From the NCBI GenBank assembly GCA_964016885.1, contig OZ024742.1, positions 232,004,001 through 232,068,000 on the forward strand: a DNA stretch of 64,000 nucleotides, read 5' to 3'. Made by a program: the position numbers and the translations under genes. Under the pieces are notes generated by a model, which worked only from the letters and a program-made list of their open reading frames with translations, did not search any database and was not told the origin of the DNA. Numbering within the stretch: the first letter of the stretch is position 1; every line of letters starts with the position of its first letter. Source of the DNA: Eledone cirrhosa. Its lineage: Eukaryota. Below, in pieces: positions 4,773-45,842 of this stretch.

Positions 4773-4855
4773 AATTACTATGACATTGACGTGTAAAATG
4801 AACCTTCGAAATTTCCCATTTGACAAACAAATTTGCTCAATGCAAATAGCAAGTT
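4773..4855 (+). CDS. Cys-loop exon (83 nt) of GlyR/GluCl-like chloride channel subunit
   Basis: Acceptor ttctttgcAG and donor GTaagt. Encodes ITMTLTCKMNLRNFPFDKQICSMQIAS, the C-x13-C Cys-loop signature with FPFD. Not in the ORF track. Confidence 0.92.
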
Positions 4856-5181
4856 GTAAGTATGGCAAGCAAATTATTAGTTTATTTTGTCTAGAAAACA
4901 AAGGCAGCAAACGTTTTACATAAAATATATGTCAACAAGGGCAACGAAGATAACTTCAGTGTGTCCTCCTTTGAATCAACACATGAAAACGAAAGCTTCA
5001 TTCAGCTCAGCAAATGACACAAATGAATACGGGAGATTATTTTAAAAGGGGACTATCAACATATCATGTTCAAGCGTAATACGTGGTAAGCACTACCACC
5101 AATATAGATTATCTACAGATATAGTCAGCAACTGTATATTCAGTTTCCTCCTCAATTTACTTTCCTCTAATATATAACTTT

Positions 5182-5335
5182 AGGCGGCGAATTGGCAGAG
5201 TCGTTAGAATGTCGGGTAGAATGCTTTATGGTATTCGTTCCGGCTCTCTGCTCTCTGAGTTCAAATCTAGGTCAACTTTGCCTTTCATCCTTTCAAGGTC
5301 GATAAAAAAAATACCAGTCTAGTACTGGCGTCGAT
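5182..5335 (+). mobile_element. tRNA-derived SINE (same family)
   Basis: ggcggcgaattggcagagtcgttaga...ctgaGTTCAAAtc...ggtcaactttgcctttcatcctttcaaggtcgataaaa: A and B boxes plus core. Confidence 0.75.
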
Positions 5336-8300
5336 TCTTCCTCTATATCTCTTTCTCATTTCCTCTCTTTCACTTTCTATATTTCTCTGGAAGAAAGCTG
5401 CTGTACCCAGGCCTGGAGAGGGATGGGCTCTGCTTGGCTTTAAATGTCCAAGAAACGCCGTATGTCAATACGGCGCCCCTACACTCGATCAGGAGTTACG
5501 AGACTACCATACCAATATATAACTTTATTGGTGGTGGTGGTGGTGGTGGTGGTGGTGGTCATGGTGGAGCGATACCCAATAAAGAACAAGAATTTATTTA
5601 GGATTCCAGATGAAAAAATGAAAGTGATACCAAGTGTATTCAAAAGCAATAAGTGAGGAATTTTATTAAAATACTAATAAAATTCCAACACATTTTAATG
5701 CATGTTATTTGGGGTTCCTGGTCTTTTACAGTCGGGACCCCATTTCGAAAATCAATAATACCCTGTGACCCTTGCCGATATATTTAAATTTAAAGAAAAA
5801 TACGTTTTCCAAGACTGAAGTGGACTTAATGTTTTATACTTTTCTTATGGAAATATTCTTCAGTTTTTTTATTTTTATTTTATTTATTTTATTTTATTTT
5901 GCTTGCATTAAATGTTGTATTACGGTCCATATATCTATGACTTATTGTATAACATATTCATGGACATTTTATCGAATACTTCAAAAATGAAAGAAATGAT
6001 CTTCGAAACCCTTTCAGAATTTTACCGTAACCCAATTTGTGCCACGACCCATAAGTTAATCTAATCTAATCTGGCCGAGTTTGCACTCACAAATAAGAAG
6101 AACCAGAGTCACCCCTAGGAGTATTGGATTTGGTGTACTTCATATTTGTTTCGGTTGCTGAATACAATCAGGGATCGCTGCTTCTCCTGAAGGTCAATAG
6201 TTCTCTTCTAACTCGACCGGGAGCGCCTTTCCATTGTCAATTTGCATTGATCATCTGCAAAGCCGCATTGTTCACAGAACTACTACACCAGTCATTCGAT
6301 GCGTGCAGTTGGAACTACTGCCACCCATTGATTTGGCAGGATTTTTTTTTTTTTTTTTAATATGGCCGTTGAGTCTTATGAGTTCTTCCGCCCTTTGTAA
6401 GGTTTTGTTTTTTGGTCCTGCAGGGTGTCCAAAATCACCCGTCCCCCTCACCAAGTAAACTTGGTGGGGTTGACGGTTTAGTCACCGACGACCCGACTGT
6501 GTGACAGGTTGTACTGGGTTACATGCTACCAGTAGCACACGAGAGTGACCTGACATAAGTTAAGATAGAGAATAAACATTCTGGAACTACACTTCCATTA
6601 AAAAATATATAAATCCATACTAAAAAATAAGTTAATATGGCTTCATTGTTGATATTGTGTGATTAGTTTTTATTTTATATCTAGTGTCGTAGATCATGTT
6701 GGTTTTAGGTTTATGGACAATATTTGCTTGAGTACGTGGATAGTGTTGGTTTTGAGTTACTTTGTTTGGGTTTATATTAGGGCATGGTTATATATATATA
6801 AATGGTCGTATCATGGCCGAATGGTCATGTTGGGATCGATCCCACTGTGTGACATCTTGGACATGAGCCATTTACCAGAGCCTCGGGTTGACCCGTGCCT
6901 TGTGAGTAGTATTTGGTAGATGGAAACTATTTGGAAGTCCGTTGGATGTCATTCAAAAGGCTAGTCTTGCCACACACTGTCACTTTAAAGCTCCCTAAGA
7001 ACTACGTTATAGGTACACGTGTTTGTGGAATGCTTACACGTTAGTTTCATGAGCAGACTGTTCCGTTGTTGATTGAACAACGGGAACACTCCCCGTCAAC
7101 ACCGACTGAAGCCCATTCTAATGTATATAAATATATTGTATGCTTGTATTTTTTTAGGTTATTGTGGTTTCATTGTTGGATGGTATTTATAAATTAATTG
7201 TTCGGTTGGTCCTGCCTCGAATTCCTTGGTACAGATACTCGTGTCTATGTCCAACTCACTCTCGAAAGTATTTATCGAATATGGTTACCAATTTAGCGAG
7301 TGAAGTTACCAATATAGCGATGGAATTTATTTTGGATGTTGGTTGTGTGAACTGATATTAGTCTGTTGTTGGGTAGTTTATGTTCATTGTGTCGTGGCAG
7401 ATGTTATAGTAGTAACTTGTTGTTAGCTTGATGAATGATTATGTACAAGGCTGGCCTGTCTCATATAAAGCGCTGTGTGGAATGCCGTTGAATGAACAAA
7501 GAAAACATTAAATATATTTATTAATTTAATAACCTGCTACGAGGTTATTGTTGACAATGTAAGAAAACAAGGCTTAAGTTGTGATGTATGCGTGTGTACA
7601 ATGATTCAAAAGATGGTATTTACCGCACTTCTGTAATGTGATGATGGTTGTTGGCCTGGCAGCGAGAGAGACCAAGAGAGAGAGAGAGAGTGAGAGAGAC
7701 CCAAGGGGTCTGTGGGAGAGAGTGGACGACATTTTAACTGCTCGAAATCAACTCTGCAACTCCGTGCTTTGACTCTGGGAGCTGGCTATTTATCACTATC
7801 GCTCATTCTTCTCCAGAACACAAGTCAAAGCAGATGGCCGTTATTTATGTCAAAATTTTAGACATATTGGCGACTAAAAACAGATTCACAATGGAAACTT
7901 ATCTATGAGGCCACTAAAGATTATTTTATTTATGGTCACTTGATAGTTTAAAAGAAACTCTATTGAAGAGAGTATCAACTGACTGCTACATATATATAGT
8001 GTTTTCTTCTTCTTAACCCACAACTTCTGATGGAGTCTTAGGGGCACCGCAGTGACATACAATAAGTCTTGGGCACTTTAAACCTGGAGGAAGCCAGCTC
8101 TCCAGATCTGAATACAGCCGATTTCTTCCAGAGAAGGGGAGAATGAGAAAGAGATATAGAGGAAAACTGCACCTTTACAGTTTTCTTTATGATCTACAAA
8201 TATATATTGACATTATTTTTAGGATTAACCTTGTATTGAAAGTAGAATATGTTCATACATTTAAACTGATGATACATATTCAAAAGACACAGGATGAAGA

Positions 8301-8752
8301 TTAAAAATTGGGAAACAATTTCTGTTTGACACGTTTGTTCTTTAACTACTATAATACGATTCGCCTGAAATTCAACAGCCAATATATGCTTCCTGTGTCT
8401 ATATCACTGATTCTTTGATACAAGCATAGCTGCGTGTAGGGTTTATTTTAAGGAAATTTTAGAACCGTACAGATCTTTGAGACAGGTGTCATGACTCAGT
8501 GTTTAATATTATCCGAGTCTGAGAAGCATTTGTAATGCTATTTGTTTAGAATTTTTTATGAATGTTTCAAGTCTTTTAACCACCATTTACCATGTACGCA
8601 CATGTAATATTTACTGCACAAAATTAGATACCGAAATACGGAAACAGGACTCAACTGTACGTTAAAATAATCACTAGCTGCGTGTCATTTATGGTATTAG
8701 TTGCCATTTAGAAGTACCATCGAGAAGGGGCATTTAATTAGATCGTCTAGAT

Positions 8753-9055
8753 CAGGGGCGTGCTACAGGCGGCCCGCGGGCCATAATCCGGTCCACCAGA
8801 CGAGTCAGAGTGGCCCGCGATGACCGTTTCTAATTTTTACCTTGTAGGCTTATTTAGATTTTTGTTCGTAACCGTAATACAATTTTCTGTTAGTTGACCT
8901 ATACTAAAGGGCTTCACTGATAAGGTTTTTTTAATTTCCCAGTTGCATGTTATGGAAAGAAGTTGTGGTAAATCTTTGGAATAGTGCTTAATGGCCCTAA
9001 TAGTTGTTCCAATGTTCAAAAGTGGCCCGCCAATGGAATATGTTGTACACCCCTG
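8753..9055. mobile_element. hAT (Charlie-type) MITE
   Basis: Termini CAGGGG...CCCCTG, perfect 8-bp TSD GTCTAGAT (8745-8752 and 9056-9063), subterminal GGCCCGC motifs. Confidence 0.88.
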
Positions 9056-9604
9056 GTCTAGATCATTTAAACAATGTGTATATGTAGTTTTCTTAGGCTG
9101 TGGGTGTGAGGACTAGGTGGATATGTATATATATTAAAATATGTATAAACATGTGTGTTTCTTTTAGTGATGAGCGTTGATAAAAAAAATAATCAAAATG
9201 CTCATCTTTAATTCTTTTGAATAAACCGGTGTAAATAAAGAAGCGACCTTTCTGCATCCTACAATAGCAGGAGACTGACATTTCGTCAGCAATTTGAAGA
9301 ATTGACATAACGTATATAATCACTATATCAAAACTTTATGGTCTATATTTTACGACGATAATACATTAGTACATATACTTCACAAAAACTACTAAATATC
9401 TGGGGACTGTCTGATGAGAAAAACATTGACAACTGTACTATATTAATTTTCGACATCAGTTCATTATAAATTCAACTACTGAGGAGACCTTTTGATAGTT
9501 TGGCAATTTAACATGACGCTGGGTTCCATTCGCTTGAATGGAAGAATTGGCTCGAGAACAATATTGATAGTAAAGAATTAGCAAACAATATATCTTGTAT
9601 TGGT

Positions 9605-9895
<291 letters not shown>

Positions 9896-10109
9896 ATTTT
9901 TCTCCTTAATAATTCATTGTTTAATTATCATCCCGCTTACAAACAATCTCTTTGATGGTTTCCATTGAATCAAAAATAAGGGTATGATAGATAAGCAATC
10001 GCTTTTACAACAAAAACAAAGATATTCATTAAAACACACCACTAAAAGTTGTACAGCGAACGATTTCAAATTTGGTGGAGATGTAGAAATGTTCCTAAAA
10101 AAACTCAAG

Positions 10110-10183
<74 letters not shown>

Positions 10184-10328
10184 GGTCAGTTAGTTGTCAT
10201 TTACAATTTTGTTATTTCGAGTTGTTCACATGCGCTGCTTATAAATTTACACTGTTTGTATCGCACGTGTTTAGCAATCGCTCCGTACATCACAGATTTT
10301 GCCGAGTACACATACACGCATACGTGTT

Positions 10329-10367
<39 letters not shown>

Positions 10368-10382
10368 TATATAAAATATACA

Positions 10383-10540
10383 AAATGAAATATACTTATC
10401 CAAGTACCCTGGGCAATGTAGTTTCAGAATATATATGGTTATGGGGGTCTATCTCCAAAACCAGAGGAGGAGTTCGTGAACAAACAAACAAATAAACAAA
10501 CAAACAGACAGGAACTACAACTTTATATATATATATATAT
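10383..10540 (-). mobile_element. Helitron 5'-end fragment (inverted copy of 13450-13600)
   Basis: Reverse complement of the first ~150 bp of the helicase-bearing Helitron at 13449. Confidence 0.65.
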
Positions 10541-11063
10541 TGACCGCCTGGAAACTGTTCAGAGACTTGCAACCAAGCGAATATCCTTCATCAGGCATCT
10601 ACCATACTCTGAACGCTTTGCTTCCCTGGGCATGGATACATTGAAACTCCGACGCCTGGCAACTGACTTGGTAAACACCCACAAAATTATTAACCATCTC
10701 GCCAACAACAACCCTGAGCACCTTTTTGATTTCCATGTCTAACACACGTGAACATGCCCACAAAGTCATAAAACAGCACAGCTCCCATGATTTTCGAAAA
10801 CATTTTTTCACGCTCAAAGTTGCTGAAGCATGGAACGAACTACCTGCGTCAGTTGTTAGCTGCTGAGACACTGCATCCTTTAAAACCTCCATGCTTCCTG
10901 AGATTCGCCAACACTACACCGAATATTCCTCCTCCATACACACGTACACATGTATATCATGACTTATACACTATTCACTTCCCTGACATTTGTATATTAT
11001 TCTATATACTATACATGCACCTTTGACGAGTTGTAGTGCACCTGAGCACTGTACACAATAATT

Positions 11064-11110
<47 letters not shown>
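10541..11110 (+). mobile_element. CR1/L2-clade LINE 3' end with (ATT)n tail
   Basis: DRLETVQRLATKRI..IRHLPYSERFASLGMDTLKLRRLATDL...KHFFTLKVAEAWNELP, a typical CR1 ORF2 C-terminus. The 3' UTR recurs at 62265-62440. Confidence 0.85.
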
Positions 11111-12390
11111 GTTCTTTGAGTCTCAGTCATTGATGTTAGTTAACTGGAAAGTTTGTTGAAATGAATATCAAGCCACTACCTGCAGCCTCAGATATTCAGG
11201 ACGTATCGGAGGGTTCTTGCTGTTCCCAGCAAGCATGCCTTTTGAAGCGTTCCAAAAAGCGTGAAGGGGCCAATTTTCCTTAACCATCCCTGGAAACTTT
11301 TTGAGATAGTCCCTAGTGCGCCTATGACAATCGGGACCACTTTGACTTCATGGCAGTTCCAAATCCTTTTTAACTCCCACTTTAAGTCCTGGTATCGGTT
11401 AATTTTCTCCCTCTCCTTCTCTTGCACTCTCGTGTCGAATTAGCAGGCCACATCCAGAATCAGGCACGATCTTTTTTCTTTGTCCACAACCAGCAGGTCA
11501 GGTCTATTGTGTTCCAGTTTCTTGTCCGTCTGTATCCTAAAATCCCACAGCACCTTCACCTGATCGTTCTCCATCACCGACTCTGGCTTATGCTCATACC
11601 ACTTCTCAGAATGTGGTAAATTGTTTACTTTGCATAGGTGCCAGTGGATCACCCTGCCCATCACATCATGTCTCCAGCCTTTATAGTGAGTCTGGGCTAG
11701 GTGTTTACACTCGGATACAATGTGAACCACAGTCTCCTCTCTCTCTCTCCACAGATCCTGCACAGTGGGCTAGCCTCGTCCTTGTAAATATGGTGTTTCA
11801 ACCACTTCGTTTTGAGGGCCTGCTCTTGCGCAGCCATTAACATTCCTTCTGTAGCCTTTTTAAGGTCTCCTCTTTTCAACCAGTTCCATGTCTGTGGATC
11901 TCTGAATTCAGTTTTCTCAAAGAAGGTACTATGAAGGGATTTTTCCTGAAGGCTGCTCTTTCTCCTTGTTGTTATTTCCTCCTTGGACATCCCCTGGTCT
12001 ATTGTCCTCTCCTTCAGTACAGTTCTGAGCATTGGCTCCTTACTATCAGTCACGTATTTGTGTAGGTTGTTTTTCTCCATCTGAACACAGTCCTCTATGC
12101 TGATAAGACCTCTTCCACCTTCAGATCTCCTTAAGTAGAGTCTATCGACATCACTCCTCTTGTGGAACATGTTGTAGATAGTCAATAGCTTCCTAGTCTT
12201 CCTATCCATTTCTTTTTGTTCAGCAACATTCCATCTCAGAATTCCCGCACTGTACCTAATAATAGACACAGCTCGGGAATTTACTGCACTTATGGCATTC
12301 CTACTGTTCAGATGTGACTTTAATACGCTCCTTACTCTCCGAATGTATTCAGTTCTTATCAATTCCTTCATTTTTTTGTTCTTGGTGTCA
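11111..12390 (-). mobile_element. Dong/R4-clade non-LTR retrotransposon, 5'-truncated and frameshifted
   Basis: RLYLRRSEGGRGLISIED, CRICG..ETVVHIVSEC (CCHC knuckle), RHD, and RPDL..D...DVAC..KINRYQDL (restriction-like endonuclease). Flanked on both sides by (ATT)n. Confidence 0.88.
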
Positions 12391-12414
12391 TCATTATTAT
12401 TATTATTATTATTA

Positions 12415-12470
<56 letters not shown>

Positions 12471-12999
12471 CATTATTATTATTATATCTGTTAGACACAC
12501 AGTGACTAACAACAGAATGTTTTAAGTCTGCGTGTCTGACATACATGCGTAGCTTGTGAATAAAAAATCCAAGGGGTATCGCTGGCCGTGGTGATCCTCC
12601 CAAACATCTTTTGTAATGTATCGTCTTATTGGCTAATTTCATCGTCTTATTGGCTAATCAACCAACGAGAGTAATTGTTTCTCAAAAGCATCCGCCACTT
12701 TGTTTGCACGGTTATTTATCGTTTCGCTTTCGAATCTTCCTCCAGTAATTCGTCGTTTATCATCAAAATATTTTTCTCGTTTTGGTAAGTTATATTGTTA
12801 ATTTATATATGATTTTTTTAAATTTATATTAACTATTAAAAGTCTGAAAATATTTTTATACATCTTACAATAATATTTATAAGAATCATTTATAAAATAA
12901 CAATTATATAATCTAATTACATTACAACGATAATGTATTATTAATATATATCATGTTTAACTAGGGTTATTACAAGCGTTGCCTTAAAAAAATATTAAA

Positions 13000-13447
13000 C
13001 TAGACCTGAAAATGCGCAAGCTCAAAAGAGCCACTGACTGTTATAATAAACCTTCAAAAGTGTGGGACTAGAGTTGTTGCTCAAAAATATTGTAATCATT
13101 ATCTATCGTATAATCTGTGGCATCCTTTTATAAAAAAAAAAAAAGAGACTCATAACGAACTCAAGACGACACGATAATTAGTTAAGTGAATTTATAATAT
13201 AGAATTCGGTTTAAGTGCATTTCGTATTAATCATTACTAAACATCTAATGAGATATTGAACATTAGCTTAAATAATTATCGTTTCGTTTTGATTTCGTTA
13301 TGAGTCTCTTTTTTATAAAAGGATGCCACAGAATGTAGGATAGATAATGATTACAATATTTTTGAGCAACAACTCTAGTCCCATACTTTTGAAGGTTTAT
13401 TATAACATTATGTGGCTCTTTTGAGCTTGCGCATTTTTCAGCTCTAG
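13000..13447. repeat. Foldback/MITE-like long inverted repeat (arms 13000-13186 and 13267-13447, ~80-bp spacer)
   Basis: Arms are reverse complements with few mismatches (e.g. gcgcaagctcaaaagagccac / gtggctcttttgagcttgcgc). Confidence 0.9.
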
Positions 13448-13448
13448 T

Positions 13449-14403
13449 ATATATATATATAGTTGTAGTTCCTGTCTGTTTGTTTGTTTATTTGTTTGTT
13501 TGTTCACGAACTCCTCCTCTGGTTTTCGAGATAGACCCCCATGATCATATATTCTGAAACTACATTGCCCAGAGTACTTCTATAAGTATATTTCATTTTA
13601 ATCAAATGGTTCTCCGAGGGCAAATTTCAATAATATTAAGACACCCTAATAGGGGTTAAACCCCCTATAGTGAAAATGTTGGCCAATAAATGGAAGAATG
13701 CGTTGTAACAAGATTGCATGAGAACTTGATTGAAGCAACCATTATATTTGGGGCTTACAAAGGTCAAGCTCTTTTCATTCCGAGGATCCCACTTATAGCA
13801 AGTGATAGCGAGTTGCCTTTTATATTTAAGAGGCTGCAGGTCCTAGTGAGGCCATGCTTTGCCATGAACATCAATAAGAGTCAAGGTCAAACTTTCAAAA
13901 CTATTGGTATAGATCTGACAAACCCATGTTTCAGTCATGGCATGTTTTATGTGGCTGTTTCAAGGACTGGAACTTTAACAAATCTCTACATTTTAGCCAA
14001 TCAAAGAAAGACAAGAAATGTTGTTTACCATGAAGTTCTTCATTAGGACAAAGTATGAAATATATTTTCATGTATTTATTATTTAAAAAAATAAATAATT
14101 AAACTTTGAATTTCTAATTTGAAAATAATGGTTTACACAGAAATGAAATGATCAAGTTTTGAATTGATATTTTGAAAAAATTATTTACAAGAAACAAAAT
14201 AAGAATAAGATTTAATAATGTAATTTTGATTTGATATATTACAAAAAATAATGTTTTCCAGTTTTTCATACATAACATTTTACATTGAGTAATATTGAAA
14301 TGCAGAGTTTTTCTTCATAAATTATATCACTGATTTAAAATCAGTCGTCATTTTCTTACAAAAAAATTGTGTGAAACGCAGCAAGGTGCGGGTAATTTGG
14401 CTA

Positions 14404-14404
<1 letters not shown>
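13449..14404 (+). mobile_element. Non-autonomous Helitron retaining a helicase C-terminal fragment
   Basis: Starts with TA-rich then (TTTG)n sequence; ends with a cgca-gcaagg-tgcg hairpin and CTAG followed by T; carries a PIF1-like fragment. Confidence 0.8.
13690..14046 (+). pseudogene. Helitron PIF1-like helicase C-terminal fragment
   Basis: FIPRIPLI...PFIFKRLQ..VRPCFAMNINKSQGQT....GIDL..PCFSHGMFYVAVSR (SF1 helicase motifs V and VI). Confidence 0.9.
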
Positions 14405-14461
<57 letters not shown>

Positions 14462-14554
14462 GTTTTGCAAGGTTTTTTATATGAAATCCTGTTTTGAAAC
14501 AAATATTGTTATATTTGGAGAGAGTCATATTGTTCTAATATTGCCAGGAATAAT

Positions 14555-14745
14555 AATTGTTCCTACTTTAGCACAAGACCAGCAATTATCCCAGTGTATT
14601 ACTGGTACTTTATTTTATCGACCCCGTAAGGATGAAAGGCAAAGTTAACCTCGGCAGGATTTGAACTCAAACCGTAAAGAGCCGTAACTCAATACTGCAA
14701 AGCATGGCGTCCGACACTCTACCGATACTGCCAATCCACCGCCCT
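14555..14745 (-). mobile_element. tRNA-derived SINE (Meta/MESC-like core)
   Basis: Nearly identical to the 21045-21230 copy; A and B boxes on the minus strand. Confidence 0.78.
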
Positions 14746-15133
14746 CTGCCAGAAATAATAATAAAACACCGTTTGGTTTGGGTTGGTTTTCACTTTTGTA
14801 TATTTTATATCGCAAAATGTTATTTAGTTGGCAATCAATGTTTATCATTGATTGACCAACAGTTAAACATATGGATATAAATATATTTCATTATGTCTCA
14901 CATAAAATAATACAGCCGGCTATCTGCAAAATATAATATAGTTAGCACCCCAAACATATAATTTGGATTATACTCAGGCACATCCTATTGTTTGTTGAGT
15001 GAGATGGATGTCGGTCGGAGTATTGTATATATATGTATATATATATATATATATAGTCTCTCAAAGTTCTTTCATCACACACCTCTCACATCATCAGTGA
15101 TACTATAATGTTTCCTCCCGTTGTATTGTAATG

Positions 15134-15210
<77 letters not shown>

Positions 15211-16351
15211 TAACAGATTAAAGTTTAAGCAAAGAATCGGTGCTTTCGCCCTTAACAGGATCTTCTAAAACTAACAAAGTCAATCTGTGAACGCAGAAGT
15301 GAATATTTCAAAAAACGTTGCAACCGGAGGAAGACAGGAAGACGATACTTTGGTTCGTGGAAACGTTCCCTGGCAAAGAACGGGAAAAGACGAATATAAT
15401 ACGTTATTATTTGGATCGGTGAAAATATATATATATATATCGGGAAATATATAAAGGGAAATGACAGGAGGCCAAATATGTTGAATTTCCTTAATTATTT
15501 ATTTCTGCAAACACTACACATTTCAGTAAGAACCTGGTAACATCTTCAGGTGTATACCAACAGAATGATGGTAAATTTTAAGGAAACAAATTAAAAAGAA
15601 TTAAGAAGAATTAAAAACTAAAAATTAAAGATTTAAAATTAAGTGTTGAGGCAAGTATTTCCTCTTCCTTTTCAACAAGGAAGAGGAAAAAACTTGCTTC
15701 AACACTTAATTTTAAATTTTAAATTTTTAGTTTTTAATTCTTCTTAATTCTTTATATCTTGAGATGAGCTATATTCATACAAGTATGAATATAGCTCTTA
15801 TCAAGATATATTCTCGTGATATCATTACTGAAAATTTTCTTTTAATAATGACTCTAAGCATATAAATACGACCTTTCAAAGTAGAATCCCCTATAATTGT
15901 AACACAGTAGGATTCTCTCTAACTCTCACAAACGTAGTAATCCCTCCAACATTGCTATACTTAAACTATTTTTCAATGTTTTGTTTTTTAACTGTCTTTT
16001 AGAGACTACTTTGAAATTTTTAAAGATTTTTTTAATATTCCTGTAATCTGTTACCATAATGAACGGTGAACAAGTACTTCAATGTAATGAACTTTTAGCC
16101 TGTGTGGAATATTGATGAAGCCTTAAATAAACTCTGATGATACCAACTCTGAATCAACACCGGTGGGTTAAGTTTTAAAATTTTGAAATTTTAAAATTAT
16201 AATATTATGGCCCAAGGGTGAAATTTTAAGACAGCAGAAACATATGTCAATTTGATAATGAATTTGAATCTTCGGTATTTTGGAAATTAATATACAGTAT
16301 ATATATATAATATAATATATATAATGTAATATATAATATATATATATATAT

Positions 16352-16565
16352 AGGAACGATCAACATTCGTCAAATCGGACCGAAGAAACAATATTTCCAT
16401 TGGTCTTTCCAATTTCTAATACTATCTATCGGTCGCAACTCCAGGTAGAAGGAGCAACGTGAAATAAAGTGTCTTGCTCAAGGACATAACGCTTCGCCCG
16501 GTCCGGGAATCGAACTCACAACCTCACGATTGCAAATCCAATTCTCTAACCACTCAGCCACATGG
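16352..16565 (-). mobile_element. CORE-type tRNA-derived SINE (inverted copy of 32701-32915)
   Basis: Reverse complement reads ...GAGTTCGATTCCC...tgtccttgagcaagacactt (B box and CORE-like motif). Confidence 0.75.
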
Positions 16566-16735
16566 TTTCTATATATATATAGTAATAATAATAAATGCGA
16601 AGACTAAAATCCAAAGAGGGCTCAATAAGGATAAATATATATCAAATATTTAAGAACCCTACAGCAAATATTTATTAAAATAACATTAAAGTTTAAGCAA
16701 AGAATCGGTGCTTATGCTTAAACTTTAATCTGTTA

Positions 16736-16786
<51 letters not shown>

Positions 16787-17259
16787 TTCTGACTTGACCA
16801 CTAGCTACGTCACAGTTCTTAGCCATTTTGAATTCGTTTCTGGAGGGGATCATTTAAGAAAAATCTTCGCCCAATTGAGTTTGTTTCCTGATGATTTCGA
16901 AACTCGTGAATTTATCCTTGATCGGATATTTCCAAAAAGCGAATGAAATCTCATGGGGTAGAAACATAATTTTGGTATGCTTATACACATTTTTTCTTCT
17001 AACTTTGATTTTGTACCTAATTGTGTATGATTGACGATATATCTAATCGATTTCCACGTGCTATTAGAAATGGTGGGTAAATATTCTATGGCTGTTGATC
17101 GCGGATAGATAGCTGTCGTTTTTTTATCTATTGTTTCTTCATAGGTGCCTTTTAATCTTATAGCTCTGTTTAATTGTTTTTTTGTGTGGTTGATTATGCT
17201 GATTGGGAGAGGAAATAATGTATATATTTTATCAAATGATTCTATGGACATACTTTTTC

Positions 17260-17333
<74 letters not shown>

Positions 17334-17344
17334 GAGAGAGAGAG

Positions 17345-17810
17345 ATTTACAATGCGGTCCAGTGATTCAGCCCAAGTCACTGGTTTAGTCAGATTATATT
17401 TATTGATGGAAATAACCAAAAATATTCCATACCTAAAGGGTGGAAAATACCAAGATGATGCTCTTTAGAATATAAAAAACACAACATACAAAGAACTAGA
17501 AAGGATTTGCATAAATTCTTCAAAAGTAATAACCTAAGTATAACTGTAGACGTAAATACTAAAATAGTTAACGTCTTAGATGTAACTCTAGATCTCCAGA
17601 CATGTACTTACAGACCATATCATAAACCAGGTAAACAACTCTTCTGATAAGAAATTAAACCGCCCTAAAGCAATACCTAACTCAATAGTTAAATGTATAT
17701 CTAATAGAATTAGTATTTTATCATAATGAAACTGTCTTTAACCAAAATGCACCATATTATAATGGCGCTTTATCTCGGTCTGGCCACACTGATAAAATTG
17801 GGTATATAAA
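17345..17810 (+). mobile_element. Degenerate Penelope-like RT fragment
   Basis: GGKYQDDAL (YxDD), KIVNVLDVTLDLQTCTYRPYHKP and VFNQNAPYYNGALSRSGH, typical of PLE RT and thumb. Confidence 0.7.
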
Positions 17811-17977
17811 TGGTAGTGTTAATGAGGGAAGGCCATGTAATATAATATCACGATATGGCAATGAAAAAATCTAAATTGAAATATCATAATAATAATTTAT
17901 ATAACCATAAAAATGATAAGGATACACAAACACAAAACACCAATAATAATAACAACAACAACAACAACAACAACAAC

Positions 17978-18010
<33 letters not shown>

Positions 18011-18011
<1 letters not shown>

Positions 18012-21000
18012 GTTTCTTTATTGGCCACAAGGGCTAACATGAAGAAAAACATTAGAGACGGAACAGTACAGGACGATACAAAGTGGGTTTTGGTCGTGTA
18101 AACAAGTTATAACAAGATAGAAATCGGGATAGAAATAAAAAAAATTCAAACAACAAAAATTCCCCAATAGGGGGGAAATCTCCGAGGGTCACTCGTGGCG
18201 AAAACCATACAAAAGACCACGGCCACCCTGACCACCAGAGCAAGCGCCCTCTCTCAGTTTTCCCACTCCTCAGTCTACAGGCGCATACTCAGAACGGGCC
18301 CGTTCACTTGGACCAGACTCACCACTTTCACCCACCCTTCAACAAACTTACTAGAAGACAGCACTTGCCTCTCCACCCTGATTTTCCTCTTCAAGTGAAA
18401 CTTGAAAAAGTTAATCAAGGTTTGGCCGGAGAGGAAAGTGTCCGTCTTCAACCCTTTCAACCTTGTCCACCACACAATCTCTTTCGCCATAGCCACCAGG
18501 CAAATGAAAACTGCCTGCCCTTCCTCCTCTTTAAAGGAGGGTGGCGGGGAAATCTGCACAATGGACTCATTCGATAACTGGATCCGTCCTACACGCGACA
18601 GCAGCTGTTTGACATGGCTCCACAAGACAGCAATCCTCGGGCACTGAACGAGTGCGTGCAGGACGGTTTCGTCGCTCTGTGCTCATCTCGGACAGGCTCG
18701 GCTGACAGCACCTCCGTGCCTGTAGAGCTTATCCCGAACCGGAAACGCTCCTCGGTAGCACTGTCAGGCCAGGGATTTCTGGAAGTTGTCCATAGGCCCC
18801 GGTCTGAAAGTTCTCTTGAAGAGAGTGAACAGCTGATCGTCTTCGGCGCCCAGGGTCTCCCTGAGAACGTCGTCGCTCTTTCCCTCCACTAGCCCTCTAT
18901 AGAACGCCGAGGTGGATGTTCCACCGATACTAGTGCCCTGCTGGTAGAGGGCGGTGAGCGCTTGGAGACATTCCAGCTTCCAAGCGCTATCCCTCGGTCT
19001 TTTCCTAATCCAGGGCTGCAGTTTCGTCAAGGAGACGAGGTGGGGGAAGGCGCTTCTGGCAAACGGTGATCACACCTGTTAACCGTCAAGGAAGCACCAG
19101 AGATGTCGCAGCCTCTGCGCATGTTTGCGCATTATCAGCCACGGCATGCTTAGTCCTCCACGCTACCGGTGTTGACAGCAAATGGATCGTCTGACGATGG
19201 GAGCACGTCCCTTCCACAAAAAGCGGAAGAGAAGGCGCTCCCTTTTGGCCAGAGTTGGGCGGGGGCAAGGTACGACGGTCAGGCAGTAGTAGATGACGGA
19301 CGCGATGTATTCATTCGCCACCTCCGCCCGACCTTTCAGAGTTAGCCTCCTCTCGGCCCATTTCTGGGTGAGAGAGGCCACCCTGCTCGTCACCTCGCTC
19401 CAGTTTTTCTCCATCTGGAGGTACGGACCGAACCAGACCCCCGAGCAATTTAACCGGTTTTTCCGTCCAGCGCCCCACGACGCTGTCGGACGGCATGGAC
19501 TTGCCTCTCCAGGTGCCGAGTTGCAAGCTCACTGACTTTTCCTGGTTTATTTTTGCTCCTGTCACCGCTTCGTATTCCTCGAGAGCGGTGTCGAGCATCT
19601 GGACGTGTTTGGTGCTCGACACCACGGTGATGTCGTCGGAGTAAGCTGACACGGATCTCCCGCATTCCAGTTCTGCTCGGGTTCGAGCATCAAGTGCCCG
19701 TTTTGATCATGCAAAGACCGAATTGTGGACTTGTTGCCACGTCGCGCCTCCACCACCCGGGCCCATTGAACGGCTTTTGTCCCCTCGTGTCTTAGAGCAC
19801 ACGCTCTAGCTCTGACAACGCAGCCTTCATGCTTTGCGTTGAAGAATTGGTCGGGTGCCAATCTTACCGCAAGCACGTCGGTTGCGATGCCTGTCCTAAA
19901 CGCCTCTTCTAGCTTTCTAACTAGCTCTCCTTCTACTCTATTTTCCTCTGTCACTACTCCTTTGCTAAACCTTATCGATTCTACTTTAATTGCCCTTTTC
20001 AGGGTGAACCACCACCTGTTGTTGACGATCGCACCCGTCAACGCACGCTTAACTAATTCGCTAATCCGGTCTCTGTAAGCTTTGCGCCGGGAACGACGCA
20101 TTCAGCTTCCAGTAACCGGGCCCTTGCCTAAGTCAACTTCACAGATCACAAATTTGTGGTCCATGTAGTCGACTACTTTAAATTGTGGACAACCTACACT
20201 ACCCTTATCTGTTTCCCTACAGAATACTCTTATCTAAATACGATCTGGATGACCCGATGCGGTTTTCCCATGTCCACATTGGCACATTCGGATAATCCAG
20301 TCGATACCTGTCAGACAGTTCAAAACGTCTGAACAGGTTGTTGAGGCTTTTACACCCTCCTGCCCTGTCTACTAGCCCCACATAATTCCAGCGTACATCT
20401 AAGATACCGTTCCAGTCGCCCACTAACACTAAAGAGCGGGACGTTTCAAGAAAGGTCTCTAGACGTCTGAAGAAATCTGGCCGTCCTGCCCCTGTTGGGG
20501 CGTAGACGGCTACTAGCCTAAAAGCATTGTTTTCGCTGCCGATCACGTCCAGCACCACCGACTTACCTTCTGGGTCTAGGAAGATGGCCTGTATGGCGAG
20601 ATCCAAGCCTCTCCGAAAAAGGACGGCAACCCCTCCCTCCGATCCTGAACGGCTGGGAGATGCGTATACATCGTAGCCGCCGAAGATCGGTGCGAAGGCT
20701 CGTGCTTCGGAGATTCTGGTCTCGCTGATGGCCACCACATTTATGTTTAGTGACCTGAGGTCGTTGAGCAGGTGGCCCTGCTTCCATGACGACCCCAGGC
20801 CACGCGCATTTATGCTGCCTATTCTGAGTAAGGTCATGTCTTTATAAATCCTCCTGGAGAGTGTTTGTCGGAAGTCTCCGATGTCCTTGGGGAATTTTAA
20901 TTTTAGTGTCGTGTACGTTTTCTGTGTGATGCGAGTGATTTGTATGTGTGGGGGTGGTGTGAATTTTTAGGGTGTTCTATAGTCTTTTTCTATGATGCTG

Positions 21001-22857: not shown

Positions 22858-23143
22858 AATAATAATCTAAACTATAATAAAGTAAGAAGCGCGGGACTGC
22901 GTACGGTTTATAATTTTTTATCCCTTTAGTAAAATAAGTTGGATTACTTTGAATAAATAATGAATGAATATTACATAATTTATCTACTAAATTTCGTGGC
23001 TGTTCATTAAATATATTTTATTACTTAATTAAAGATTCACTTCTTTAAAATGTACAAATGTCAACACTTCCGGTTAGTGATCGTTTAAATAAATATTCAT
23101 ATATTTCTGTAACTAATTTTCTCCTAATACAGTTTATATATAA

Positions 23144-24464: not shown

Positions 24465-24467
24465 TAT

Positions 24468-24805: not shown

Positions 24806-24806
24806 A

Positions 24807-24860
<54 letters not shown>

Positions 24861-25480: not shown

Positions 25481-25484
25481 AGGA

Positions 25485-26677: not shown

Positions 26678-27307
26678 ATCATCATCATCATCATCATCAA
26701 CGTTTAACGTCCGTGTTCCACACTTGCATGGGTTTGGACGGGGGTAGTCCCACTTGAGGCAAGAGTGATTGTCTTGCTCGCATAGGACTGTCTGGCAGGT
26801 TTTCTACAGTTGGATGCCCTTCCTAACACCAACCACATTTACAGTGTGGGTCTGGGAGGTTTTTACCGTGTTGCCTACACGGCCACATTACAGCGTGGAC
26901 TGTGTGTTTTTTTGTCGTGACACCTACACGATCTCATTTGTTTCGGCCTGGATGGCGCGGCACCAACATAACTTTACATAGAACGGGGTGGTGTGGATGG
27001 GGTGGGGGTGGCGGCGGGAGGGGTGTATTTTGTTAGAGATGCCTACTGGCAAGGCGGGTCTTCTCTGTTACTGAGTACCGCCAAAGGTCACGGTCCAGTG
27101 ACATTGTCTTGGAGAGGTGTAAGTGTGTGAGGTCGGAGTTTATCAGCTCATCCCATGTTTTTCTAGGTCTGCCTATTCCGTGGCTACCGTCTATCTTTAT
27201 TGCCCTGCACTTTGTAATACAGCTATCGACTTTCATGCGCATCACGTGTCCATACCAACGCAGCCTTCTCTCGAGTAAACAACATCTGATCCCTCTTATC
27301 TCTAATT
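26678..27307 (-). mobile_element. RTE-clade LINE 3' end with (GAT)n tail
   Basis: Inverted homolog of 29880-30509; RRLRWYGHVMRM...GRPRKTW. Confidence 0.9.
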
Positions 27308-27435
27308 AATTAATAATATTAACCTAAGATCTACAATCCCCCACACTAACTATATTATTAATCCAAATTGTAACTATAGAAATAATACACTATGCCCACT
27401 TAGCTGTAATTTTTTAACTGATAATATAATATATG

Positions 27436-30400: not shown

Positions 30401-30509
30401 CCTATGCGAGCAAGACAACCACTCTTGCCTCAAGTGGGAAAACTCCCGTCCAAACCCATGCAAGCGTGGAAGATGGACGTTAAACGATGATGATAATGAT
30501 GATGATGAT
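27436..30509 (+). mobile_element. RTE-clade LINE, 5'-truncated, with 3' UTR and (GAT)n tail
   Basis: Contains the 832-aa EN-RT ORF, a frameshifted C-terminus (29935-30135) and a (GAT)n tail at 30486-30509. Confidence 0.95.
27440..29938 (+). pseudogene. RTE endonuclease/reverse transcriptase ORF (likely disabled) with embedded PHD-like finger
   Basis: ISAYAPQ, QVDYIL, SQHR (APE); NYRGIKL, QFGF, FVDLEKAFDRVP, LLYADD, FRYLG (RT). The GDFN and QGS motifs are deleted. Confidence 0.9.
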
Positions 30510-31820
30510 GTACAGTTAACACCTCTTGGGATCCTTTTCCAGTTAACTTTGTGGAAGTTTAAGCAGGAGAGAGACCAAGTGCTTCCTGTCTGCTGTATAT
30601 CTCCAGTCTTCCTCGGACTCTACATTACTAGTTCTATTGTGTTATGGTTGGAGAAAATCGTTAGTGTTACTTTCACATTGTGAATGAGTTTTCCATGTTA
30701 TTCATGAAGCAGAGATCCAGGGTATTCTCACCTCTTGTTGGGTGGAGTACGATTTATTCCAAGAAAAGCCTGTTTGTAAGGTCCAACAAGGATTCTGTCT
30801 GCCATTGTTCAAGTGCCGTCATTCCTGAGAGGGGGGCAGGAGCAATCGGGCCATTTGACCTTGGTGAGGTTAAAATCTCCCAGCAGCAGTATGTTGAGTC
30901 TATTATCTAGATTGATTAGTACTTCTTCCATCTTTCTGAGGCTATCTTCAAACTTGTCCTCATGACAAGGGGCGTCTGATGGTCAATATGTGACCCATAT
31001 TACCATTTTGAGTTGCTTTACATATACTATTAGTGCGTCACAGACAGAATTGGAATGTGACAACCATACTAATGATGTGATAGCTTCAAGGAGGTACAAA
31101 ACAATTCTACCATGAGTTCTCCCCCTCCTGTCAGTACGAAATACAACATACTTTGCTATGTGTATTTCTATGTGTATTTCTGCTATCCTAGCTGTCAGGT
31201 GAGTTTCAGTTAGTGCCATTCATATTGCTTGATTGCTTATAACTAGATCTCTTAGGTAGGGGATCTTACACATGTTGGTCAGTTTTACTAGGCCTCTTAC
31301 AATTAGTAGTAGCACTGGTGTGACATTTGGGGTGTTAGTGGTGGCTGTTGATGTTGCATTTGTGTGGGTATCAGTGGTGGCCACCCTGGGTCCTTTATTT
31401 GTTGTGGTCGTGAGTGTTGATGTGACTGACCTTGGCTTTGTATTTAATGAAGCCAAGTCAGCTGTCTCACAATCTTTTCTGCTATTTTTTAAAAAGACTG
31501 TTGTTCTGTAGCTACAGTCTGTACTGCTTTCACATACTGTCTCACCTTCATCAGGACAGTACGTGCAACCTCAGCATACTTCCTGGGCAATAACCCAGTG
31601 TGCTGTGTTGTTTGCTCATGTTGGTTTTGGCTGGAGTATTTGGGATGAGCAGGCTGGGTGCAGCTCACCTGGGGCGTGCAAAACTGTAGCCATTCCCAGC
31701 TTCCCCATGCCAGCAGGACCCTTTCTTATAGAACTTAAAAAGTAGTTAAGCTTTCTTTTTCCAAGGGTCTCTGTTTTTCCTAGTTCTAGTCTTCTTCACC
31801 TTAGCATTTGTCTACTGGTT
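30510..31820 (-). mobile_element. Degenerate CR1/Jockey-group LINE 5' fragment (endonuclease)
   Basis: LLIVRGL..., ALTETHL...YVVFRTDRRGRTHG.IVLYL, with many stops. Confidence 0.6.
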
Positions 31821-31853
31821 GCCACCTGTCTGTTTATTTACATTTTTCTTCTT

Positions 31854-31937
<84 letters not shown>

Positions 31938-32639
31938 TATGAAATGGAAATGCGGGTATACAGAATTTATTAGGTAACAATTGTTTCTATAGTGTATGGG
32001 TTACCTATACCTCGCTATTTGAATAATATAAAAATATTATCATAAACCGAAGGTACACTGTAAGCAAAAACACCATGTCGTCAGACCTTTGTATTGGAAT
32101 GATATGAAAATATTTTATACACTAGATAAAAGATAAAGAAGGAGGTAGGAAGAGAAGGGGAAGAGGGAAGTGAGTAAGGTGGAGGGAGTCTTAGGATTTA
32201 AGACTGTCAAACTAGTAGAGATTGTAAGGAGAGAATGTTTTGGCAGCAGTTAGCTTAATGAGGCGTGTTAGGGTTGGCGGGGGAAGTAAATTCTTCTAGT
32301 GGTGTTGTTCGGACAAAATTTAGTTAAAGGGGTCAAAGTGGTAGAGTGTCACAGACAAGTTATTGGGGCTATTATAGTAGCAGGTTATTTCTAAAGGGGT
32401 CCAGAAAACAGTGTTTAGTACTATTATTATAGAAAGCTATATCTTGTGTATAAACATATAAAACAAAAATTTGCAAACGGTGGTGTAAAAAGGTAACATT
32501 ATATGCATTTAAAAAAAGAAAAAGTCGTTTTCAAACGATGGTTACAGTATAGAGAACGTTCAATTTTGCTGTTCAAAAGTTTGTTTACCGACGTTAAAAT
32601 GCAGTATATCTCCAAATTGCATAACTTGCAGAATCGATG

Positions 32640-32700
<61 letters not shown>

Positions 32701-32703
<3 letters not shown>

Positions 32704-32915
32704 AGGCGTGTGGCTGAGTGTTCGCAATCGTAAGGTTGTGAGTTCGATTCCTGGACCAGGCGATGCGTTATGTTCTTGAGCAAGACACTTTATTTCACGT
32801 TGCTCCTTCTACCTGGAGTTGCGACCGATAGATAGTATTAGCAATTGGAAAGACCAACGGAAACATTGTTCCCTCGGTCCGATTTGACGAAAGTCGATCG
32901 TTCCTATATATCGTT
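32701..32915 (+). mobile_element. CORE-type tRNA-derived SINE inserted in (TA)n
   Basis: ggcgtgtggctgagtg...gagttcgattcc...gttcttgagcaagacactt; (TA)n on both flanks. Confidence 0.78.
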
Positions 32916-32988
<73 letters not shown>

Positions 32989-33261
32989 CAAAGGAATTGT
33001 GGTAAGGAACCAGATGGACCATAACGCACCAGAGTACTCAATACTTAGGGTAGTAGAGTGGGAAATAGGAAATGGTATGACCCCGTCGGGGTCATACCAT
33101 TTCCTATATATATATATATATTGTTATACTTTGGGTAGTAGAATAGGAAATGGTATAAGAAATACACGCACCAGTTGCTTTCACTTCAATTTATTATAAT
33201 AAATTTATAAATTTAGGAATTTGGTTGGTTGGTTCCACAACCAGATGGTTGTTTATATATT

Positions 33262-33304
33262 GTCAAAGTTCTTTCGTCACACATTCTGTGACCTCTTCAG
33301 TGAC
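33262..33304 (-). ncRNA. Minimal type I hammerhead-ribozyme-like motif (Penelope pLTR remnant)
   Basis: Minus strand GUCA-CUGAAGA-G-GUCACA(GAAUG)UGUGAC-GAAA-GAAC-UU-UGAC: core boxes plus stems I and II and a minimal stem III. Confidence 0.5.
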
Positions 33305-33364
33305 TGGGGATTCTTTTCTTTGTTTTTGTGCCTCTCCTTTGTTCTGTCCTACGCCATCTTGACG

Positions 33365-33419
<55 letters not shown>

Positions 33420-34268
33420 CATATATATATTTATTTTATATATTATATATATATGTATATATATGTGTGTGTGCTTATCTTAAAGAAATTTTAGAACTGC
33501 CCAAATCTTTGTGACCCAGTGCTTAATGCTCTCTGAGTCTGAGTACCATTTGTAATGACTATTTTTACCATCATTTACCATGGAAGCCCATAAAACGTTT
33601 ATTACATTTATCAGAATGATAGTGGACTCTGGTTGAGAAGTTTGCTTCACAATCATGGCATTCCAGGTTCAGTTTGACAGTGTGGCATGTTGAACAAATC
33701 TCTTTATCATAGCCGTGGGTCAGAGAGTTAAGATCAACTAGTTGAAGACATTATGACTGCTGGAGATTTAAATTACCAAAATTATGCTGCTGTTGACTGC
33801 ATAAGTCAAAAGTAACACTCTCCTAGCTTCTGTTTGAACTCATGCTTATATCCTTGTTGAATTTGACAGCTAAAGAAGTGAGTGATTGATGTGCTTTTAA
33901 TGAGGCAGAAATACTGAATTTGAATTGGCTGAATCCTCATTAAAAAAAAAAAAAACATTTTTGCAATATATCTTTGTTGACAAAAAACGAACAATATCGA
34001 AAAGTAGTGATTCATGCTCGAAAGATTCTTGAGTGGATCAAAAGTTAAGGTTTCACATCTCAGGGGAAAAATATGTTACATTAGTTATTGAGCTAATGTT
34101 GTTTTTCCTCCTAGCATAATTATTTTTGATATTGTATCAGAAGTTTATAAAGACCAAACGGTCACTCTTCATCCTCTTTCTTTATAGTTTCTGTTTGTTC
34201 CTGTATGATGATTCACCATTTTAATAGACATCATTTGTTTACTTTTCTTTTATATTTTTGTTTCATAG

Positions 34269-34406
34269 TCAGCTACACGAATTCAACATTACTGTTGAAA
34301 TGGTTTCCTATAAAAGCAGTACAAATAAGCAAGAATGTTGTTGATACACAATTCATAATGCAGCAAGTTTCTCAGTCTGAATGTGTAAACTTTGTTCGAC
34401 AAGAAG
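34269..34406 (+). CDS. Loop B/F/C exon (138 nt) of the same channel subunit
   Basis: Polypyrimidine tract plus tttcatAG, donor GTatag. Reads (F)SYTNSTLLLKWFPIKAVQISKNVVDTQFIMQQVSQSECVNFVRQE(G), which aligns by eye to GlyR FGYTMNDLIFEW...AVQV...LPQF...YC. Phase-compatible with both neighbouring exons. Confidence 0.88.
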
Positions 34407-36803: not shown

Positions 36804-36834
<31 letters not shown>

Positions 36835-36847
36835 ATTTATTTCTCAG

Positions 36848-37245
36848 GAAATCATAGCTGCCTTCAAGCAAACTTTCACCTGACTCGTAGTGTTGGATAT
36901 TATGTTGTTCAAATGTACATCCCAACTATACTTATTGTTGTACTATCCTGGTTGTCATTTTGGTTGAATGTTGGTTCAGTCCCAGGCCGTATATCTCTTG
37001 GTGTACTCACTGTTCTCACAACAACTACCCAAATATCGTCAGTCAATGCAGCTTTGCCCAGAGTCTCTTATACAAAAGCCATTGATATCTGGATGGCGAC
37101 ATGTTTACTATTTGTATTTGCTGCCCTCATTGAATTTGCTGTTGCAAATGTCTTAAGCAGGAAAGAAACAATGAATGGGTTTTTCTTTCAAAATGTTTAT
37201 TGCAAAGAAGACACTGAAAATAAACAGTCAAGCAACAAAACTGAG
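36848..37245 (+). CDS. M1-M3 transmembrane exon (398 nt) of the channel subunit
   Basis: Acceptor ttctcAG after a long pyrimidine tract, donor GTaact. Encodes YIPTILIVVLSWLSFW (M1), PGRISLGVLTVLTTTTQ (anion-type M2), LPRVSYTKAIDIW and M3. Lies within ORF 36730..37332. Confidence 0.96.
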
Positions 37246-39141: not shown

Positions 39142-39220
<79 letters not shown>

Positions 39221-45371: not shown

Positions 45372-45598
45372 TTGACCCTTTAGCATTTAAACTGGCTGTA
45401 TCCAGCCAGAATTGTTTCAGCCCTTTCTGTTCAAACCAGCTGTAACCAGCCACTCATACCGATGTTAAGGTATTGTTCTCAAAATAAATAGTATTAAGAT
45501 CTCATAGATAGGACATTATATGAGATAATTGTTAGGTAAAGCCTTTACCATGAAAATATAATAGTATATATAGAGTAATGTAAAGGTTAAAAGGTTAA
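45372..45598 (+). mobile_element. piggyBac-type MITE just upstream of the terminal exon
   Basis: ccctttagcatttaaa...aaaaggttaa; body shared with the other family copies. Confidence 0.8.
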
Positions 45599-45662
45599 GG
45601 AATTTTTATATCATACATGGATATTAACTTTTTTGTGATTTATATAATTTCTCTAATTTCAG

Positions 45663-45842
45663 ATGAAATCACGTGAAAATGATTTGATCAACAAAATTAC
45701 TGACATAGAAGGTGGTTTACCAAAACGAACTGGGATTTGGTATGCTTCAGTGCTGGATAGTTCATCAAGAATTGTTTTCCCTTTAATGTTTGCACTTTTC
45801 AATTTAGTTTATTGGCCATCTTATTTAGAAAAAACAGACTAA
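45663..45842 (+). CDS. Terminal exon (end of M3-M4 loop, M4 and stop) of the channel subunit
   Basis: Acceptor ctaatttcAG, phase 0. MKSRENDLINKITDIEGGLPKRTGIWYASVLDSSSRIVFPLMFALFNLVYWPSYLEKTD* carries the D..SR..FP..F..FN..YW M4 signature. At 59 aa it falls below the ORF-track cutoff. Confidence 0.92.
   Translation: MKSRENDLINKITDIEGGLPKRTGIWYASVLDSSSRIVFPLMFALFNLVYWPSYLEKTD

What the first reader, a model, noticed from the sequence alone, without database searches (positions are those of the whole stretch)
4773..45842. Divergent, probably orphan Cys-loop anion channel scattered over 41 kb of transposon-filled introns
Seen: four exons splice in frame into the C-terminal two-thirds of a pLGIC, with the 83-nt Cys-loop exon separated from the next exon by 29.4 kb. 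Established: GlyR-alpha has loop B ESFGY and loop C C-x10-C with aromatic residues (YCTKHYNTGKFTC); GluCl has ASYAY and YCTS.TNTG.YSC. Here loop B is ASFSY. Loop C is C-x11-C (CVNFVRQEGNHSC), with His at the conserved aromatic position, no loop-C Thr, and an N-H-S sequon. The conserved LPQF motif reads DTQF. Inference: the orthosteric site may bind neither glycine nor glutamate, so this could be a lineage-specific receptor for another transmitter, for protons or for a chemosensory cue, or a non-binding accessory subunit.
Basis: partly seen in the sequence, partly recalled or inferred. Interest (0 to 1): 0.75.

Follow-up and report, generated by a model that had tools for sequence, protein, structure and literature searches.

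The report
Octopus orphan "zeta"-type chloride channel
This is an intact, spliced octopus gene of a glycine-receptor-like ion channel group found across molluscs; it lacks the arginine that such receptors use to grip glycine or glutamate, so it likely opens a chloride pore in response to a different, still unknown signal, most likely a small amine.

Summary
The four exons are real and in frame. Four more exons lie upstream: 8 exons, 179 kb, 421 aa. Transcript-like contigs of one run join the exons across the 29.4 kb intron.

The gene is not octopus-specific. It is the single copy found here of a mollusc-wide clade (100/99 support) containing the uncharacterised Lymnaea "zeta" subunit. Orthology to the Aplysia glutamate-gated chloride channel is rejected (AU p=0.0018).

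The loop C sequon, the loop B Ala and loss of the LPQF proline also occur in other channels. The strongest sign lies upstream of the window: the carboxylate-binding loop D Arg is Tyr, and no Arg stands in loop A or G.

Across the clade that Arg is His (38 of 46; 0 of 151 outside), paired with a loop C His (38 of 46). Octopus, squid and cuttlefish keep only the loop C His.

Best reading: a chloride channel subunit for a ligand without a carboxylate, probably an amine. pH/zinc gating and an accessory role remain open. No ligand was tested. No earlier scan note covers it.

The parts
4773..4855 (+). Exon 5 of 8: Cys-loop (C163-C177) and start of loop B (A182, S183, first base of F184)
   Evidence: AG/GT ends; covered by an X16 contig whose loose ends match exons 4 and 6
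4856..34268 (+). Intron 5, 29,413 nt, GT-AG, repeat-rich
27425..29935 (+). LINE-type retrotransposon ORF (837 aa stop to stop) inside intron 5
   Evidence: PF00078 RVT_1 E 1e-26
20220..20966 (-). Endonuclease fragment, probably of a second LINE, inside intron 5
   Evidence: PF03372 E 3.8e-9
34269..34406 (+). Exon 6: rest of loop B, loop F with DTQF (34343-34354), first loop C cysteine C222 (34382)
36848..37245 (+). Exon 7: end of loop C (N231, H232 at 36853-36855, C234), M1, PGR at -2' to 0' (36982-36990), M2, M3, start of the inner loop
   Evidence: PF02932 E 2.5e-29
45663..45842 (+). Exon 8, coding part: M4 and stop codon; the 3' UTR runs on to at least 46500
   Evidence: X16 contig joins 37243 to 45661 and continues to 46500

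Best explanation
The gene is the intact, spliced octopod member of the mollusc-wide 'zeta' group of glycine-receptor-like pentameric channels, and its product likely forms a chloride channel that is likely opened by a small ligand without a carboxylate, most likely a positively charged amine, rather than by glycine, glutamate or GABA. Shown: gene structure, splicing in one run, clade membership, and the residues at each pocket position. Inferred: five subunits assemble; the ligand sits between subunits in a pocket of aromatic residues (Y89, F87, Y124, F184, H232) with two acids (D70, E229) and no arginine at the loop D, A or G positions; loop C closes; the PGR-lined pore passes chloride and inhibits the cell.
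For: Loop D Arg (GlyR R65) is Tyr, loop A is Pro, loop G (N46) is Asp, loop B Glu is Ala, and the loop C Thr/Phe are Glu/His. Mutating the loop D Arg abolished glutamate gating in a nematode channel, and glutamate needs an extra Arg in loop A or G (PMC4338433, results read). Only 2 of 46 clade members have Arg/Lys at any of positions 46, 65, 101, 129, against 139 of 151 outside. Both faces of the pocket are kept: 14 of 15 tabulated pocket positions are identical across five octopod and decapod proteins, whose extracellular domains are 83-92% identical. The pore has P-2', R0', L9', T13' and no acidic residue at -1'. Tree support for the clade is 100/99.
Against: No ligand was tested and no member of the clade has a function in the papers I could read. 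The amine-binding loop B Glu is lost here (Ala), although 30 of 46 clade members keep it. Loop C holds an Arg (R227) that might bind an acid; a cnidarian channel uses a loop C Lys for glutamate (PMC13335744, passages). 14 of 15 conserved positions is not clearly above the 83-85% background. Courtney et al. screened 41 O. vulgaris channels with 18 ligands including monoamines, ACh, choline and betaine, and the parts I read describe only DopC and AChRB channels; whether this gene was in that screen is in a supplement I could not see. G at -1' differs from the usual PAR motif.
Confidence: 0.4

Rival explanations
1. A proton- or metal-sensing chloride channel: the two clade-typical histidines on opposite faces of the old agonist site, with nearby Glu/Asp, would act as a pH or Zn2+ switch. 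The coleoid copy would be a retuned form with one histidine.
For: His at GlyR 65 in 38 of 46 (0 of 151 outside) and at 207 in 38 of 46 (4 of 151 outside); both in 31 of 46. pH gating is known in related invertebrate channels: Alvinella Alpo7 (PMC4801368, passages), Drosophila Alka (PMC13103399), and mite SsCl, where His/Glu residues set pH sensitivity (PMC13065796, passages).
Against: This gene has Tyr at 65 and Ala at 157, so the full pair is absent. The SsCl sensor lies beside, not in, the orthosteric site. The Alka K+ site is absent (S47, K139, D49, S61 against D, Q, N, D). No coordinates were available to measure the His-His distance.
Confidence: 0.22
2. An accessory subunit that does not gate alone and shapes heteromers, for example with the one octopod paralog that keeps the loop D Arg (contig C2).
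For: Key agonist residues are altered on both faces. M1-M3 is far more conserved than the extracellular domain against Lymnaea zeta (80% vs 41%). No homomeric function is reported in the papers read.
Against: The substitutions are specific and clade-wide rather than scattered (17 diagnostic columns). Loop C keeps its disulfide in coleoids. The clade has several copies in bivalves and gastropods, which fits ligand tuning.
Confidence: 0.22
3. Still an amino-acid or taurine-type receptor, with the acid group held by a different basic residue (loop C R227, or loop E R144).
For: Glutamate recognition has moved between loops several times. Loop C is rich in Arg/His in many clade members. Dufour et al. 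called Lymnaea zeta a 'putative GluCl' (PMC3757052, passage).
Against: The verified GluCls aligned in PMC4338433 share the loop D Arg motif. Asp at the loop G position would repel a second carboxylate. Orthology to GluClAc is rejected.
Confidence: 0.13

Closest known systems
Lymnaea stagnalis GABA/glycine-receptor-like 'zeta' subunit (Q08861, CAA50492)
   Same: Same clade at 100/99; 46% identity, 80% over M1-M3; shares PGR, loop C N-H-S-C, loop A Pro and absence of the loop D Arg.
   Different: Zeta has His65, Met157, C-x12-C and LPQF; this gene has Tyr, Ala, C-x11-C and DTQF. One-to-one orthology is neither shown nor rejected (AU p=0.5). Zeta is listed only as 'putative'; its 1993 cloning is recalled, not read.
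Annotated coleoid orthologs: O. vulgaris CAI9725134, O. bimaculoides XP_014773572, O. sinensis XP_029639301, Sepia CAE1284566
   Same: 77-85% identity over the chain for the three full-length ones compared; same pocket residues apart from S/T at 129.
   Different: Automatically named 'glycine receptor alpha-like' although the glycine-binding motif is missing; a search for two of these accessions found no paper.
Aplysia GluClAc2 (NP_001191520), molluscan glutamate-gated chloride channel
   Same: Two Cys loops, loop B Ala, same broad lophotrochozoan radiation (98/83); 38% identity.
   Different: Has loop D Arg, loop A Arg and loop C Thr/Phe, all absent here; grouping with it is rejected, p=0.0018.
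Vertebrate glycine receptor alpha (PDB 6UBS, 9PKY, 5TIN)
   Same: Best solved match by sequence (E 1.7e-100) and by fold (TM 0.70), both for the O. vulgaris ortholog.
   Different: R65, E157, T204, F207 are Y, A, E, H here; separate clade.

Membership tests
Pentameric Cys-loop channels | C-x13-C loop, ligand-binding domain, four membrane helices | tested here: met
   C163-C177; PF02931 and PF02932, and four helices in the model of the O. vulgaris ortholog
Two-Cys-loop anion channels | Second disulfide in loop C | tested here: met
   C222 and C234, x11 spacing; x11 also in 16 of 151 channels outside the clade
Two-Cys-loop anion channels | PAR motif before M2 | tested here: inconclusive
   PGR; G in 44 of 46 clade members, 8 of 151 outside; no acidic residue at -1'
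Two-Cys-loop anion channels | Measured chloride selectivity | not testable with these tools
   Needs electrophysiology
Glycine receptor alpha | Loop D Arg65, loop B Glu157, loop C Thr204 and Phe207 | tested here: not met
   Y89, A182, E229, H232
Glycine receptor alpha | Groups with vertebrate alpha subunits | tested here: not met
   Separate starred clades; no AU test run for this pair
Molluscan GluCl (GluClAc) | Loop A Arg plus loop D Arg | tested here: not met
   P126 and Y89; motif from PMC4338433
Molluscan GluCl (GluClAc) | Orthology | tested here: not met
   AU p=0.0018, log-likelihood 52.9 lower
Ecdysozoan GluCl | Loop G Arg | tested here: not met
   D70
Molluscan zeta clade | One clade with Lymnaea zeta | tested here: met
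   29 rows, 100/99; 110 of 331 rows at FastTree 0.98
Molluscan zeta clade | Loop C His, PGR, loop A Pro, Met117 | tested here: met
Molluscan zeta clade | His at the loop D Arg position (typical, not universal: 38 of 46) | tested here: not met
   Tyr in all coleoid members that have the segment
Molluscan zeta clade | One-to-one orthology with Lymnaea zeta | tested here: inconclusive
   AU p=0.5
Drosophila Alka (K+/alkali-gated) | K+ site residues (GlyR alpha1 positions 47 D, 139 Q, 49 N, 61 D) | tested here: not met
   S, K, D, S; positions converted by me from the alpha2 mutant in PMC13103399
Insect HisCl and pHCl, Alvinella pHCl | Orthology | not tested
   No sequence named HisCl or pHCl was identified among the tree rows

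The most novel reading that the evidence does not exclude
The zeta clade is an undescribed molluscan class of inhibitory channels in which the amino-acid site was rebuilt around a histidine pair, giving either an independently evolved amine-gated (for example histamine-gated) chloride channel or an orthosteric pH/zinc sensor. The coleoid ancestor then re-tuned the site once (His to Tyr, Glu to Ala, LPQF to DTQF; stem branch 0.72 changes per site) and held it almost fixed in octopus, squid and cuttlefish.
Probability: 0.3. Interest if true: 0.7.

Novelty: new member of a known kind. Interest (0 to 1): 0.38.

Why it matters
The gene itself has annotated orthologs, and orphan molluscan anion channels lacking the amino-acid motif were noted before (PMC4338433). 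What this adds is a defined clade with a residue signature that narrows the ligand search and corrects the 'glycine receptor' and 'putative GluCl' labels. Of seven other two-Cys-loop genes located in this genome, only one shows the loop D Arg, five show Thr or Glu, and one could not be read. So much of the octopod inhibitory channel set may use unknown signals. Fast chloride responses to amines in gastropod neurons are known to me from memory only; their genes would be a long-standing gap that this clade makes testable.

Tried and rejected
Unusual gene structure: rejected. Other introns of the gene are as long or longer, and two exons of the C2 paralog lie about 120 kb apart.

Loop C sequon as a pocket-blocking novelty: rejected; it is in 39 of 46 clade members, 48 of 151 others, and the Arg-bearing octopod paralog.

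DTQF as loss of function: not supported. GluClAc2 works with Ser at this proline, and Pro-to-Leu editing here gives gain of function in glycine receptors (PMC10239821, passages).

Alka-type K+ site: absent.

Tissue expression: not obtained. Only 4 of 16 listed runs hold the stretch, all from one study, with no tissue label. Three behave as DNA and may be the window's source.

Papers: ten searches found no functional study of the clade. Kehoe 2009 is not held. The 1993 zeta paper did not appear. PMC4938671 and PMC7789530 held nothing on zeta.

Earlier scan notes: none relevant. No complex prediction was run, since a homopentamer would pass by likeness to solved structures. The C1:355.4 Mb fragment was left out of the tree (only M1-M3 found).

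Full report
Observation. The window lies at C3:232004001-232068000 of a 3.0 Gb genome; its closest proteins are from octopuses. Searches with the O. vulgaris ortholog found four more exons upstream, at C3:231870419, 231923942, 231941341 and 232002803. The eight exons have GT-AG introns of 53.4, 17.3, 61.4, 5.7, 29.4, 2.4 and 8.4 kb, span 179,424 nt and give 421 aa with a single terminal stop. That 83- and 138-nt exons also occur in vertebrate glycine and GABA-A receptor genes is recalled, not tested.

Splicing. Four of 16 listed runs hold exon 7, all from one study. Three give contigs that run through intron sequence. The fourth, X16, gives a 964-nt contig that lies on exon 6 at its positions 31-166 and on exon 5 at 167-251, with loose ends matching the start of exon 6 and the end of exon 4. 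A 1326-nt contig joins exon 7 to exon 8 and continues to at least 46500. The 29.4 kb intron is therefore removed in a transcript-like contig. This is one run, of unknown tissue, and its library type is not on record.

Relatives. The closest proteins are coleoid: O. bimaculoides 85%, O. vulgaris 84%, Sepia 77%. Next come gastropod, bivalve and chiton proteins, among them Lymnaea 'zeta' (Q08861, CAA50492; 46%). An IQ-TREE tree of 81 chosen rows by 280 columns puts the gene in a 29-row clade with zeta at 100/99. A FastTree of 331 rows, out of 349 aligned, gives the same clade with 110 rows at 0.98. Every named member is a mollusc; many members are unnamed, and the 50%-cluster search could hide non-molluscs. 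The coleoid group has a long stem (0.72) and short tips (0.03 or less). Holding it with GluClAc is rejected (p=0.0018). Holding it with the Lymnaea-type gastropod group is not (p=0.5), so strict orthology is open. Seven other two-Cys-loop genes placed from this genome all fall outside the clade; the genome search gives lower bounds.

The pocket. In GlyR alpha1 numbering the gene has M44, D46, F63, Y65, Y99, P101, M117, T129, A157, F159, E204 and H207; loop C has one extra residue, so the 202-204 match is approximate. Lynagh et al. (PMC4338433; abstract, introduction and results read) define an amino-acid agonist motif with a loop D Arg whose loss abolished glutamate gating, plus a loop A or loop G Arg for glutamate. 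They also note that many molluscan subunits lack the motif and form new classes. All three arginines are missing here. After removing rows over 85% identical, position 65 is His in 38 of 46 clade members, never Arg, and His in 0 of 151 others. Position 207 is His in 38 of 46 against 4 of 151. PGR replaces PAR in 44 of 46 (two further members have A at -1', and some have A at -2'). Both histidines occur together in 31 of 46. That positions 65 and 207 face the same cavity from opposite subunits follows from the motif description and from recalled GlyR structures; I had no coordinates to measure it. Coleoids keep H207 but have Y65, A157 and DTQF.

The loop C His and the missing Thr are informative. 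The sequon is common. Loop B Ala is the GluCl state. The proline of LPQF is Ser in GluClAc2, and its edit to Leu raises agonist potency in glycine receptors (PMC10239821, passages). DTQF may therefore tune gating rather than break it; this is inference.

Mechanism. The fold is that of a glycine receptor: the model of the O. vulgaris ortholog has mean pLDDT 78.5 and TM 0.70 to 9PKY. The pore motif points to anions, unmeasured. An aromatic pocket with two acids and no arginine best fits a cationic ligand without a carboxylate (0.40). A His-based pH or metal switch fits the clade better than this copy (0.22). An accessory subunit (0.22) and an amino-acid receptor using loop C R227 (0.13) remain possible.

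What is known. Courtney et al. (10.1101/2025.04.02.646353; first two of ten parts and keyword passages read) tested 41 O. vulgaris channels with 18 ligands. Histamine, taurine and zinc do not occur in the main text, and the gene list is in a closed supplement. A venom-gland preprint (10.1101/2025.06.15.659772; one section and passages read) reports two uncharacterised cephalopod groups next to GluCls and no glycinergic channels; whether this gene is in one of them I could not see. Dufour et al. (PMC3757052, passages) list zeta as putative. Blarre et al. (PMC4178172; introduction and passages) and the MolluscaGenes preprint (PMC13174522; passages) gave context only. Ten paper searches found no functional study and no mention of the histidine pair; most subscription papers are not in the library.

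Verdict. A real, conserved, orphan receptor of a known but uncharacterised molluscan group: new member of a known kind, interest 0.38. The clade-wide histidine pair and the coleoid re-tuning are the leads worth testing.

Noticed in passing
G000 C4:114.9, 115.2, 223.8, 374.7, 375.7 Mb and C1:76.2 Mb (L032-L036, L038, L044-L049): Six further two-Cys-loop paralogs form a second molluscan clade (100/94). Five that could be read have Thr or Glu at the loop D Arg position, and all six have Arg or Lys at the loop E Ser position. This may be a relocated acid-binding residue, a fourth way to bind an amino acid.
   Followed up: partly
G000 C2:19.32-19.44 Mb (L037, L043); ortholog P0291: The only paralog seen with the loop D Arg. 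Its O. vulgaris ortholog has loop B Glu and no loop A Arg, the pattern expected for a glycine/taurine/beta-alanine receptor, although a preprint saw no glycinergic channel in cephalopods.
   Followed up: partly
Exon 4, G000:C3:232002803-232003029 (1.0-1.2 kb before the window): An AG 30 nt into the exon matches two unnamed proteins in the Sepia cluster (P0125 on 10 contigs, P0127 on 1) that lack exactly the ten loop D residues: a likely alternative acceptor that deletes loop D in frame.
   Followed up: partly
Bivalve members of the clade (P0039, P0070, P0086 and others): Many have lost the first or both loop C cysteines while keeping both histidines or the loop D His.
   Followed up: no
window 60276-60743, minus strand: Fragment with a homeodomain-like HTH match (PF13565, E 1e-5, below cut-off); looks like a Tc1/mariner transposase piece.
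   Followed up: no
window 27425-29935: The intronic LINE ORF carries a weak PHD-finger match after the reverse transcriptase (E 1e-5).
   Followed up: no
G000 C11:23.6-23.9 Mb: Cluster of about 20 long single-exon matches to the ligand-binding domain; by layout probably the chemotactile receptor cluster (label recalled, not tested).
   Followed up: no
G000 C1:355.4 Mb (L050): Divergent anion-type M1-M3 exon without the second loop C cysteine and with a changed M2-M3 loop; its other exons were not found.
   Followed up: no
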